Positions 1 through 40,807 of a DNA stretch of 64,000 bases are shown here, one piece after another. How positions within the stretch are numbered: the stretch's first letter is position 1; every line of letters starts with the position of its first letter. The notes beneath the pieces are model-generated. The model did not search any database. It was given only the letters and a program-made list of their open reading frames with translations, and had not been told where the DNA came from. The stretch comes from a virus, in UHGV virus genome UHGV-0123226. One strand, 5' to 3'. Position numbers and translations under genes: made by a program.

Positions 1-48
1 AAACGGCTCATAACCGTTCGGTCACAGGTTCGAGTCCTGTATGGTCCA
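1..48 (+). tRNA. tRNA (CAT anticodon; Met or Ile2), 3' portion from anticodon arm to discriminator; 5' part lies before the window
   Basis: Anticodon stem aacgg/ccgtt with loop ctCATaa (2-18); T-arm acagg-ttcgagt-cctgt (24-40); acceptor 3' strand atggtcc plus discriminator a (41-48). No CCA encoded. Confidence 0.6.
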
Positions 49-11731: not shown

Positions 11732-11751
11732 TAAATGATAGTATAAAAAAA

Positions 11752-11773
11752 CTACCTAGTTTCCGCTAGGTAG
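11752..11773 (+). promoter_or_regulatory. hairpin 1 of a trio with conserved loop TTTCCGC
   Basis: ctacctag-TTTCCG-ctaggtag, perfect 8-bp stem. Confidence 0.55.
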
Positions 11774-11912
11774 TTCTGTAAGAAATAATATTAAGTTTAT
11801 TTTTTATAGTATTTTTATACCAAACCCATTATAAAAAATCAAGTATAAAAAAGCCAACCGACCACTGGTTGACTAAAACCATATTAGTGATGAATATTCT
11901 ACCAGATAAATA

Positions 11913-11936
11913 GCCAGTCGTTTTCCGCCGACTGGC
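11913..11936 (+). promoter_or_regulatory. hairpin 2 with loop TTTTCCGC
   Basis: gccagtcg-TTTTCCGC-cgactggc, perfect 8-bp stem. Confidence 0.55.
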
Positions 11937-12043
11937 TGAGAAGTGAATAACTATTGGAATATTATTCTTAATATAATTAATATCATAAGTAATGGTTAAA
12001 TAGCAAAGAATAAGCTTTCATTTGTATATTTGCATAAATTAAA

Positions 12044-12073
12044 GGAGTTACTCAGTTTCCGCTAAGTAACTCC
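12044..12073 (+). promoter_or_regulatory. hairpin 3 with loop cAGTTTCCGCTa
   Basis: ggagttact-cAGTTTCCGCTa-agtaactcc, 9-bp stem. Different stems but the same loop core as hairpins 1 and 2. Confidence 0.55.
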
Positions 12074-12127
12074 TAATGATGGTATGTTTCACATAAAATA
12101 TTATACCATATAGGAGGAGTCAAGGCT

Positions 12128-12619
12128 ATGACGTTGGTACCAGAAATAGATTACAAAAAAACAAAAGATAAAGTTCGTAGATTATTAAAAAATTGTCGAA
12201 GCCTACAACGAATGAGTGGTGTAAAAGTACATTTGCAATCTCCTATATTATCTGATATGCCGCGACACCATAGTAACAGAAATAATGCTGAGGAAAGTAT
12301 GGTTCATTTATTTAGATACACGTCTAAGTTATCAATAGAGGCAGCTAGACAACGTAGAGAGCAAGTCAGAGCGATAGAGCATACGTTAAAATCGTTGCCT
12401 GATGTCTCGAGAGAAATATTATACTATTCATATTGTGTACCGAATCCATACAGCATGGCTAAGTTGAGTAGAACAATAAAAGTATATCGTGAAAACGAGT
12501 TTGGCCAAGTGGAAGAAATAAGCTATAGCATTAAAAATATTGAAAAGCTGAAAGACAATGCGTTAATTGAATTTGCGGAAGCCTACCATTACGAAAATTT
12601 GATAGTTCAAAAAAATTAG
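12128..12619 (+). CDS. arpU: ArpU-family late-gene transcriptional regulator
   Basis: 163 aa; position immediately upstream of the packaging genes; N-terminal sequence typical of ArpU-like regulators of Enterococcus/Listeria phages. Confidence 0.55.
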   Translation: MTLVPEIDYKKTKDKVRRLLKNCRSLQRMSGVKVHLQSPILSDMPRHHSNRNNAEESMVHLFRYTSKLSIEAARQRREQVRAIEHTLKSLPDVSREILYYSYCVPNPYSMAKLSRTIKVYRENEFGQVEEISYSIKNIEKLKDNALIEFAEAYHYENLIVQKN

Positions 12620-13404
12620 GGTTTTTTTAGGGATTATTTAGGGTTTTTAACTCGAAATCCGTTGTATTATGGTAGTATCAAAAGTCAAAGAAATGGACAC
12701 AGTACACACTTTCTCGTTTAGTCACCGTTCACTTTGTCTTTCGATGGTCACTTGCAGACTTACGTTCTCAATAAAATGAAGTGAGGTGAATAACCTCCTC
12801 TTTTTTCTACAGGTTTGCAAGGGACACAAATAGTTGCTAGGGATGCAGTAGTAACTACCTGATTCATACTAGTCGAGGTTAGGTATATTGCTCTATCCCA
12901 TCATATGACGATAAGAACATTAACCAGATCTCTGCGGCAGCTGCTTACGCACGAGAGCAATTCCTAAACTCATAGAGTAGCAGCTAGGTACGTTTAGGAT
13001 AAACTTAATCAATTGTTTTTGCTGGTGTTTGATTGATTGGTCACTGTGGTGGAATATAGACCTTACAAGGTGCAAATCCTTGCCAGTGACATAATCATTT
13101 TAGCCGTGAAAGTCTGCGAAAGCTACATCCTGAAGGGAAAACATTCTGACGAGAGTGTGTAAAGGTTAATTTGATTTATTAGCAATTGCTAGAAGGTCGC
13201 TCCTTCTGGTTTGGCGTGTAGCATTGTGGTAATGCAACTGATTACGTGTGAGATAAGATGCGGGTTCGAATCCTGTCACGCCAATAGGTAGCATAGCTAC
13301 TTAAATAAATTAGGAAACGTCAATAGATGTTTCTATCCTTCACGAGAGGCATCCACTTGCTGGGTGTCTCTTTTTATACATAAAATTACATAGGAGGTGA
13401 GGTC
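12620..13404 (+). other. 785-bp GC-enriched non-coding region between arpU and terS (candidate structured RNA and/or cos region)
   Basis: No ORF of 60 aa or longer on either strand; GC visibly higher than the flanks; contains TTAGGGTTTTT x2 (12617-12650) and a tRNA-like 3' half (13212-13284). Confidence 0.4.
13212..13284 (+). ncRNA. tRNA-like element (acceptor stem, D-arm and T-arm present; no canonical anticodon stem)
   Basis: tggcgtg...cacgcca acceptor pairing; D-arm gcat-tgtggta-atgc; T-arm gcggg-TTCGAAT-cctgt. I could not fold the middle 23 nt into an anticodon stem. Confidence 0.3.
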
Positions 13405-40697: not shown

Positions 40698-40807
40698 TTG
40701 ATGATTGCTGTATTGAAACAAAAAGAGCCTACCTCGTCCGCCAACGAAGTAAGCTGCTAAACAAAAAATATACAAGTAAATAATAACACGGAAAGTAGGA
40801 ATTTAAA

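What the first reader, a model, noticed from the sequence alone, without database searches (positions are those of the whole stretch)
11745..12080. Three hairpins with different stems but a conserved TTTCCGC loop upstream of arpU
Hairpin 1 is ctacctag-TTTCCG-ctaggtag (11752-11773). Hairpin 2 is gccagtcg-TTTTCCGC-cgactggc (11913-11936). Hairpin 3 is ggagttact-cAGTTTCCGCTa-agtaactcc (12044-12073). The stems are 8-9 bp, perfect, and unrelated in sequence, while the loop core (A)GTTTCCGC(TA) is conserved. That compensatory pattern is typical of a functional RNA or DNA structural motif rather than chance. They sit in the about 400-bp non-coding gap at the early-to-late boundary, just before the late regulator gene arpU. 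None is followed by a U-tract, so they are not classical intrinsic terminators. They could be binding sites for an RNA-binding regulator or antiterminator, RNase processing sites, or a replication or packaging element.
Basis: seen in the sequence. Interest (0 to 1): 0.55.

Follow-up and report, generated by a model that had tools for sequence, protein, structure and literature searches.

The report
Phage small-RNA genes on opposite strand
The three hairpins are real, but they belong to a cluster of small non-coding RNA genes read from the opposite strand; these are phage copies of a known Enterococcus faecalis small RNA (Ref1C), placed antisense just upstream of the phage's late-gene activator arpU.

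Summary
The three hairpins exist as described and are not chance. A model built only from unrelated loci finds exactly these three in 64 kb (E from 1e-9 to 9e-6).

- On the minus strand the loop reads CGGAAA.
- In the first 16 distinct hairpins, 15 of 16 non-Watson-Crick stem positions are G.U on the minus strand only.
- The terminal hairpins are followed by T-runs.
- Each unit has an extended -10 promoter box.

Rfam matches 11842-11987(-) to Ref1C (RF02845), an experimentally detected E. faecalis sRNA. The score is 55 bits, below the curated cutoff of 90 (E 7e-7).

The gap therefore holds three tandem predicted sRNA units of about 68, 126 and 60 nt. The family has invariant loops CGGAAA and AGUGGUC and covarying stems. 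It recurs in dozens of prophage-like contigs. In 55 of 65 loci an arpU-family gene lies 100-700 bp away on the opposite strand.

Function is unknown. The best inference is antisense or kissing-loop control at the early-to-late junction. It is a new phage-borne variant of a known sRNA family, of moderate interest.

The parts
11748..11777 (-). Hairpin H1 (B-type): 12 pairs, loop CGGAAA, followed by a T-run. Terminator of predicted sRNA unit 1.
   Evidence: R1 44.3 bits; independent R2 38.8 bits.
11740..11807 (-). Predicted sRNA unit 1, about 68 nt. The TSS (~11807) is inferred from the -10 box; the 3' end lies in the U-run.
   Evidence: prediction by analogy with mapped chromosomal TSSs. Fold z = -4.5.
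11814..11822 (-). Extended -10 box TGGTATAAA for unit 1.
11852..11874 (-). Hairpin C: 8 pairs including one G.U, loop AGUGGUC, then TTTTTT (11846-11851). Terminator of unit 2.
   Evidence: Family covariation.
11912..11937 (-). Hairpin H2 (B-type): 9 pairs, loop GCGGAAAA. Internal hairpin of unit 2.
   Evidence: R1 43.8 bits; R2 28.4 bits.
11842..11987 (-). Ref1C-like sRNA unit 2, as matched by Rfam RF02845. The predicted transcript is about 11845-11970, roughly 126 nt.
   Evidence: 55 bits, E 6.6e-7, below the gathering score of 90..
11939..11950 (-). Conserved single-stranded box UUAUUCACUUCU, 5' of hairpin H2. It is shared with both chromosomal Ref1C-locus units.
11977..11985 (-). Extended -10 box TGATATTAA for unit 2. 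A conserved upstream block GCTTATTCTTTGCT lies at 12002-12015.
12043..12074 (-). Hairpin H3 (B-type): 13 pairs including one U.G, loop CGGAAA, then UUUAAUUUAU. Terminator of unit 3.
   Evidence: R1 36.9 bits; R2 26.6 bits.
12034..12093 (-). Predicted sRNA unit 3, about 60 nt. Its predicted start is about 20 nt from the arpU ribosome-binding site.
12100..12108 (-). Extended -10 box TGGTATAAT for unit 3. It is invariant in SEsuP-1 and phiFL1B.
12128..12619 (+). arpU, the late-gene transcriptional activator. The sRNA cluster lies upstream of it and antisense to it.
   Evidence: TIGR01637, 70.2 bits against a cutoff of 43.1. phrog_248.

Best explanation
The 400-bp gap holds three tandem small non-coding RNA genes on the minus strand, antisense to the early-operon-to-arpU direction.

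Each predicted unit has a sigma-70 extended -10 box and ends in a stem-loop. H1, hairpin C and H3 are the terminal hairpins. H1 and C are each followed by a clean U-run; H3 is followed only by a U-rich tail. H2 is the internal hairpin of the middle unit. That middle unit is a diverged homologue of the E. faecalis sRNA Ref1C (also called sRNA_103).

Shown here: the structure is selected on the minus-strand RNA. The family has invariant loops (CGGAAA, AGUGGUC) and covarying stems. It is consistently placed upstream of, and antisense to, late-activator genes.

Inferred:
- The RNAs are made constitutively.
- They are complementary to any early read-through transcript that reaches arpU.
- They damp or time arpU expression, and so late genes, through antisense pairing that starts at the loops.
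- Because the loops are invariant across paralogues whose stems differ, there is probably also a common trans partner, either a protein or complementary loops in other family loci.
For: Strand:
- In the first 16 distinct hairpins examined, 15 of 16 non-Watson-Crick stem positions are A.C on +, which is G.U on minus.
- The H3 homologue in SEsuP-1/phiFL1B keeps 13 pairs on minus through three G.U pairs.
- All four hairpins are terminator-like on minus and none on +.

Identity:
- RF02845 Ref1C matches 11842-11987(-) over all 131 model positions, 55 bits, E 6.6e-7.
- The true Ref1C scores 149.8 bits in L003 and has the same loops.

Expression of homologues:
- Ref1C was detected by 5'tagRACE and northern blot (PMC3074167).
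- V583 dRNA-seq gives two primary TSSs for sRNA_103 (PMC7724050 Table S7).
- Each TSS maps exactly 7 nt downstream of an extended -10 box of the same type as in the phage units.

Structure:
- B-type hairpins: 95.5% of cells paired, 8 of 10 pairs with double changes, 0 of 500 shuffles as high. The independent set gives 90%, 7 of 10 and 0 of 500.
- C-type hairpins: 98%, 5 of 8 and 0 of 500.

Specificity.

Context:
- 63 of 72 viral pattern matches have both stems.
- 55 of 65 loci have an arpU-family gene 100-700 bp away on the opposite strand, in three arpU clades.
- One prophage-like locus has the module upstream of a RinA-like gene.

Other points:
- There is no ORF of 20 aa or more in the gap.
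- No + strand terminator-like site is called in the gap, so sense read-through is possible.
- ltr genes are reported to be part of the cI-controlled early operon (PMC3753634).
Against: - No transcript data exist for this phage. Promoters, TSSs and RNA sizes are predictions.
- The Rfam score is below the curated threshold. Units 1 and 3 share only the B-type hairpin and the promoter type with Ref1C.
- The U-tails of H2 and H3 are weak.
- A cis-antisense role does not by itself explain why loop sequences are invariant among paralogues.
- The core-genome Ref1C has no arpU nearby, so the family's primary function may be unrelated to arpU.
- A possible + strand extended -10 (TGGTATGTT, 12080-12088) could give arpU its own promoter downstream of all three units. 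In that case the arpU mRNA would not overlap them.
- No function for Ref1C was found in the literature searched.
Confidence: 0.62

Rival explanations
1. Protein-binding sRNAs. The RNAs are real minus-strand sRNAs, but their job is to bind or sponge a host or phage RNA-binding protein through the invariant loops. The GGA-containing CGGAAA loops resemble CsrA/Rsm sites. Their position next to arpU would then be incidental, a convenient intergenic slot.
For: - Loops are invariant while stems and linkers vary.
- There are several GGA-loop hairpins per locus.
- The same loops occur in a core-genome sRNA that has no arpU nearby.
Against: - No CsrA-like ORF is found in the window (using recalled query sequences).
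- As far as I know, non-motile E. faecalis lacks CsrA and Hfq. This rests on my own knowledge and was not tested.
- The strict antisense-upstream placement next to late activators in 55 of 65 loci is unexplained by this model.
Confidence: 0.12
2. Plain terminators or insulators. The hairpins only stop stray leftward (antisense) transcription at the early/late junction. The loop is conserved by common descent or folding stability, and no functional RNA product exists.
For: - All four hairpins are called terminator-like on minus.
- H1 and hairpin C have clean T-runs.
Against: - Each unit carries its own promoter box.
- The chromosomal homologues are primary transcripts with mapped TSSs.
- H2 is internal with no T-run.
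- Loops stay invariant although stems have turned over completely, so this is not mere descent.
Confidence: 0.12
3. The hairpins act in the sense (+) transcript as binding sites for an antiterminator or other RNA-binding regulator, or as RNase processing sites that control arpU.
For: - The hairpins would also form in a + strand read-through RNA (fold z from -4 to -7).
- They lie upstream of arpU.
Against: - A.C mismatches accumulate on +.
- The H3 homologue collapses to 5 bp on +.
- There are no + strand U-tracts.
- Homologues in the chromosome are transcribed on the CGGAAA strand.
Confidence: 0.07
4. A DNA-level element: an ArpU or repressor operator, a replication or packaging hairpin, or a dispersed miniature repeat (EFAR/REP/MITE-like).
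For: Palindromes in an AT-rich intergenic region at a module boundary.
Against: - G.U strand asymmetry is an RNA signature.
- Covariation preserves pairing rather than sequence.
- The loop does not co-vary with the clade-specific post-arpU repeats TTAGGG, TTGGCGG, TGTAGGG and TATACCC.
- Only 2 copies occur in 138 kb of chromosome and 3 in this 64-kb window, all at one locus.
Confidence: 0.03

Closest known systems
Ref1C (Rfam RF02845), equal to sRNA_103 of E. faecalis V583
   Same: - Same strand logic.
- Same hairpin loop GCGGAAAA.
- Same terminator loop AGUGGUC followed by a U-run.
- Shared boxes UUAUUCACUUCU and AUUUAUCUGG.
- Same extended -10 promoter type.
- Tandem arrangement of units at the locus.
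   Different: - Phage-borne rather than core-chromosomal.
- Scores 55 bits against a gathering score of 90.
- The 5' hairpin is not conserved.
- It is flanked by two shorter units that share only the CGGAAA hairpin.
- It is located antisense-upstream of arpU.
Phage antisense RNAs such as P22 sar, lambda OOP and P1/P7 c4 (from my own knowledge, not tested here)
   Same: Small constitutive RNAs encoded opposite to a key regulatory gene's transcript. In P1/P7 c4, short loop sequences carry the recognition specificity.
   Different: - No sequence relation.
- The target overlap here is inferred, not shown.
- The family is also present as a host core-genome sRNA.
Plasmid copy-control antisense RNAs that act through kissing loops, such as CopA/CopT and RNAI/RNAII (from my own knowledge)
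   Same: Stem-loops whose apical loops would initiate pairing with complementary loops in the sense RNA.
   Different: - No YUNR U-turn motif is evident in the loops.
- Loops are conserved across different elements, whereas plasmid loops diverge to set incompatibility groups.
Lambda-type nut boxB hairpins
   Same: A conserved purine-rich loop on variable stems, near a regulatory junction in a temperate phage.
   Different: - Here the structure is selected on the antisense strand.
- The hairpins are followed by U-runs, so they are themselves terminators.
- No N-like protein was sought or found.
CsrB/RsmZ-type GGA-loop sponge RNAs
   Same: Repeated hairpins presenting GGA in the apical loop.
   Different: - No CsrA-like gene in the window.
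- Only one to two such loops per RNA.
- A second invariant loop (AGUGGUC) lacks GGA.

Membership tests
Rfam RF02845 Ref1C | Score at or above the curated gathering threshold (90 bits) against the family covariance model | tested here: not met
   Unit 2 scores 55 bits (E 6.6e-7) and unit 3 scores 21 bits (E 5.8). The true Ref1C scores 149.8 bits.
Rfam RF02845 Ref1C | Internal hairpin with loop GCGGAAAA, plus a 3' terminator hairpin with loop AGUGGUC followed by a U-run | tested here: met
   Unit 2: 11912-11937 and 11852-11874, then T6. Loops are invariant across the family.
Rfam RF02845 Ref1C | 5' hairpin (model positions 3-30) presenting UUUAUUCAC in its loop | tested here: inconclusive
   The alignment marks non-canonical pairs there. 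The UUAUUCACUUCU box is present but abuts H2.
Rfam RF02845 Ref1C | Expressed as a primary transcript of about 130 nt | not testable with these tools
   Only the chromosomal homologue has TSS and northern data. The phage TSS is predicted.
Intrinsic (Rho-independent) terminator | G+C-containing stem-loop followed directly by a U-run on the transcribed strand | tested here: met
   On the minus strand, all four hairpins are called. H1 and C have clean T-runs; H2 and H3 have weaker tails. No + strand site is called at any of the hairpins in the gap.
Sense-strand regulatory hairpins (nut/boxB-like or RNase sites) | Base-pairing maintained in the sense (+) transcript | tested here: not met
   15 A.C versus 1 G.U on +. 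The H3 homologue has only 5 bp on +.
ArpU/Ltr operator | The motif co-varies with the activator clade's binding repeats | tested here: not met
   Post-arpU repeats differ between clades (TTAGGG, TTGGCGG, TGTAGGG, TATACCC) while the loop motif is constant.
Dispersed miniature repeats (EFAR/REP/MITE) | Many dispersed genomic copies | tested here: not met
   2 hits in 138 kb of chromosome, both at the Ref1C locus. 3 hits in the 64-kb window, all in this gap. EFAR sequences themselves were not available.
CsrA/Rsm-binding sRNA | A cognate CsrA-family protein is present | tested here: inconclusive
   No tblastn hit in the window using CsrA sequences recalled from memory. The host genome was not searchable.
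Type I toxin-antitoxin | A small hydrophobic ORF overlapped by the antisense RNA | tested here: not met
   No ORF of 20 aa or more in any frame of 11735-12125.

The most novel reading that the evidence does not exclude
Both loops (CGGAAA and AGUGGUC) are invariant in the host core sRNA Ref1C and in the sRNAs of many different Enterococcus prophages. Any family member could therefore 'kiss' the complementary loops in the leader of any resident phage's late-activator (arpU or rinA) transcript. The chromosome and co-resident prophages would then cross-regulate entry into late gene expression. That would be an RNA-based layer of inter-prophage immunity or host domestication.
Probability: 0.1. Interest if true: 0.8.

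Novelty: new variant of a known kind. Interest (0 to 1): 0.5.

Why it matters
ArpU-type activators are the switch for packaging and lysis genes in many Gram-positive temperate phages. How their own expression is timed is poorly understood.

A conserved antisense sRNA cluster directly upstream of arpU would be a concrete, testable candidate for that control. It is related to a host sRNA present in all E. faecalis strains examined but of unknown function. It would also give Ref1C its first functional lead.

On the practical side, these intergenic regions are unannotated or mis-annotated in phage records. One overlapping 'hypothetical protein' CDS in SEsuP-1 is probably spurious.

Tried and rejected
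- Naive shuffle test of perfect 8-bp hairpins sharing a loop 6-mer. It was uninformative: H3 is not counted and AT-rich shuffles share low-complexity loops. It was replaced by the independent covariance model.
- Pattern TTTCCGC N{8,35} GAAGTGAATAA in viral contigs. It refound only the same lineage, and the rest were chance matches.
- Genome-wide pattern scan.
- The 'sRNA_062/_051/_064' group of Michaux 2020. These are ykoK riboswitches, not relatives.
- Pfam has no ArpU model. NCBIfam and PHROGs were used instead.
- EFAR repeat paper. It is not in the library, so that rival was tested by copy number instead.
- CsrA idea. No homologue in the window.
- Search for extra sites complementary to the loops on the gene-sense strand. 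There was no convincing recurrent trans target, and counts were inflated by near-identical loci.
- Resemblance of the SEsuP-type ArpU repeat TTGGCGG to the loop. Judged coincidental because other arpU clades have different repeats but the same loop.
- A T-box-like reading of the loops (a codon-like CGG/GGA followed by A, and UGGU able to pair with a tRNA 3' ACCA end) was considered. There is no supporting evidence, and the phage tRNA differs between relatives (tRNA-Arg here, tRNA-Asn in SEsuP-1).
- A 'Listeria phage' hit (UNVERIFIED_ORG). It has only a C-type hairpin, which is not enough to claim cross-genus spread.

Full report
**What the window is.** The region belongs to an Enterococcus faecalis temperate phage of the phiFL1 group. 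It is 99-100% identical to phage 1_EfsPF36 and partly similar to phiFL1A/B/C and SEsuP-1. The ORF at 12128-12619 is an ArpU-family late activator: TIGR01637 at 70.2 bits against a cutoff of 43.1, and phrog_248. The gap 11732-12127 has no ORF of 20 aa or more in any frame.

**The observation.** All three hairpins are present as described.
- H1 has 10 perfect pairs (11750-11775).
- H2 has 9 perfect pairs (11912-11937).
- H3 (12043-12074) has one C/A mismatch on the + strand.

Of the 28 TTTCCG copies in the 64-kb window, only these three are in hairpins. The motif count alone is not enriched: 8 TTTCCGC copies against 6.2 expected. The hairpin context is highly specific, however. A covariance model built from 14 hairpins of other loci, none homologous to the window's, recovers exactly these three at 38.8, 28.4 and 26.6 bits. 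The next best hit scores 14 bits. A first model found nothing in about 300 kb of unrelated viral DNA. A naive perfect-stem shuffle test was uninformative.

**The strand.** Several independent lines put the functional structure on the minus strand.
- An Rfam scan matches 11842-11987(-) to RF02845, 'Enterococcus sRNA 1C' (Ref1C), over the full model. The score is 55 bits, E 6.6e-7, below the gathering score of 90. The match covers H2 and a fourth hairpin at 11852-11874 whose minus-strand loop is AGUGGUC.
- All four hairpins are terminator-like on the minus strand, against 1.1 expected. No + strand terminator-like site is called in the gap.
- In the first 16 distinct hairpins collected from the window and related loci, 15 of the 16 non-Watson-Crick stem positions are A.C on +, which is G.U on minus. 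Only one is the reverse.
- The H3 homologue of SEsuP-1/phiFL1B keeps 13 pairs on minus through three G.U pairs but would have only 5 bp on +.

**Relation to Ref1C.** A chromosomal contig (L003) carries the genuine Ref1C at 149.8 bits, with a second Ref1C-like unit just upstream.
- Ref1C was found by 5'tagRACE and seen on northern blots. It is present in all 25 E. faecalis genomes examined, and no function was assigned (PMC3074167).
- V583 dRNA-seq lists it as sRNA_103 with two primary TSSs, at 2405737 and 2405869 (PMC7724050 Table S7).
- Transferred to L003, each TSS lies exactly 7 nt downstream of an extended -10 box, TGGTATAAA or TGTTATAAA.
- The three phage units carry the same box type at 11814-11822, 11977-11985 and 12100-12108 on the minus strand.
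- The last box is invariant in phages that are about 82% identical over this region. The unit 2 box differs there at one position (TGATATTAA versus TGATATAAA), and a conserved block lies upstream of it.
- This predicts minus-strand RNAs of about 68, 126 and 60 nt. They fold better than shuffled controls, with z from -3.2 to -4.5.

**The family.** Two hairpin classes recur.
- The B-type loop is CGGAAA, closed by G-C or G/A.
- The C-type loop is AGUGGUC, usually followed by a U-run.
- Loops are invariant while stems turn over with compensation.
- B set 1: 95.5% of cells paired, 8 of 10 pairs with double changes.
- Independent B set: 90% paired, 7 of 10.
- C set: 98% paired, 5 of 8.
- In each set, none of 500 shuffles reached the observed covariation score, and slid registers collapse.
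- A pattern joining both loops finds 72 matches in IMG/VR, and 63 of them have both stems. They fall into several stem types.
- Chromosomal copies exist in at least two other Enterococcus species and one Enterococcaceae genome.
- The family is low-copy. In 138 kb of E. faecalis chromosome, only the Ref1C locus scores.

**Context.** In 55 of 65 loci an arpU-family gene lies 100-700 bp from the module on the opposite strand, and three divergent arpU clades are represented. Of the ten remaining loci, five are cut by contig ends. Two are the genome-derived loci L054 and L120. L120 is prophage-like, and there the units sit antisense-upstream of a borderline RinA-family regulator. The other three were not examined further. 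So the module tracks the late-activator slot rather than one particular protein.

The loop is not an ArpU site. The triple direct repeats immediately after arpU are the kind of repeat proposed as Ltr-binding sites (PMC3753634). They differ by clade (TTAGGG, TTGGCGG, TGTAGGG, TATACCC) while the loop motif is constant.

**Mechanism.**
- Shown: the structures are selected in a minus-strand RNA. They belong to a Ref1C-like family. They sit antisense just upstream of late activators.
- Inferred: the units are constitutively transcribed sRNAs.
- Inferred: ltr genes are reported to lie in the cI-controlled early operon, and no + strand terminator-like site is called in the gap. The sRNAs would therefore be fully complementary to read-through RNA entering arpU and could damp or time its expression.
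- The invariance of two loops among paralogues with unrelated stems is not needed for pure cis-antisense action. It points to a shared trans partner, either a protein or complementary loops of other family loci.
- Caveat: a possible + strand extended -10 (TGGTATGTT, 12080-12088) lies back-to-back with the unit 3 promoter. It could give arpU its own start downstream of all units. Control would then work by promoter competition rather than RNA pairing.

**Rivals.**
- Sense-strand protein-binding or processing hairpins are disfavoured by the strand asymmetry.
- DNA-level elements and dispersed repeats are disfavoured by the G.U signature, the copy number and the lack of co-variation with ArpU boxes.
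- Plain terminators do not explain the unit promoters, the internal hairpin H2 or the invariant loops.
- A protein-sponge role remains possible. No CsrA-like gene is in the window.

**Novelty.** I found no description of sRNAs upstream of arpU or of phage-borne Ref1C relatives in the papers searched. Phage records leave the region unannotated. This is a new phage-borne variant of a known but functionally uncharacterised sRNA family.

Noticed in passing
window 12617-12650: Three direct repeats of TTAGGG, about 13 nt apart, lie immediately after the arpU stop codon. Other arpU clades have different triple repeats at the same place: TTGGCGG in SEsuP-1/phiFL1B, TGTAGGG in L240 and a TATACCC type in L166. 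These are probably the clade-specific ArpU-binding boxes of the late promoter (compare PMC3753634).
   Followed up: partly
window 13211-13285 (+): A phage-encoded tRNA-Arg (anticodon ACG) lies between arpU and the terminase genes. SEsuP-1 carries a tRNA-Asn at the equivalent place.
   Followed up: no
window 40719-40772 (-): A match above the gathering score to RF02838, 'Enterococcus sRNA 55' (Ref55): 77.6 bits against 43. This is another experimentally named E. faecalis sRNA in the window.
   Followed up: no
window 1-48 (+): The window starts inside a tRNA gene (3' part, 33 bits). It may be the prophage attachment site.
   Followed up: no
window 12080-12088 (+) and 12100-12108 (-): Back-to-back extended -10-like boxes: TGGTATGTT on + and TGGTATAAT on -. 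Both are conserved in SEsuP-1/phiFL1B (TGATATGTT / TGGTATAAT). They may be divergent, overlapping promoters for arpU and sRNA unit 3.
   Followed up: partly
L003 1329-1416 (+): In the E. faecalis chromosome a BsrC (RF01410) match, 65.6 bits against a gathering score of 38, lies next to Ref1C on the opposite strand. It sits roughly where V583 sRNA_104 is annotated as 'antisense'.
   Followed up: no
L001 1641-1901 (SEsuP-1 CDS QYI86655.1): An annotated 'hypothetical protein' CDS overlaps the compact sRNA module (B and C hairpins at L001 1612-1676). It may be a mis-annotation.
   Followed up: no
L240 2500-2530 (OR846730, 'Listeria phage LM 4-11-1', UNVERIFIED_ORG): A C-type hairpin (loop AGUGGUC on the antisense strand, no T-run, no B-type hairpin) lies just upstream of an arpU gene. 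The host assignment of the record is flagged as unverified.
   Followed up: partly
L166 and related type II loci, 1.6-3.5 kb downstream of the module: Sense-strand terminators downstream of arpU have arms GATCACTC / GAGTGGTC. Their 3' arm contains the same 7-mer as the C loop. This is unexplained and may simply reflect homologous copies.
   Followed up: no
L166 3497-3520: A further antisense-strand terminator-like hairpin, GUCGGA-GGAA-UCCGGC followed by U7, lies between the sRNA module and the arpU-like gene. Its GGAA tetraloop recalls the CGGAAA loop.
   Followed up: no
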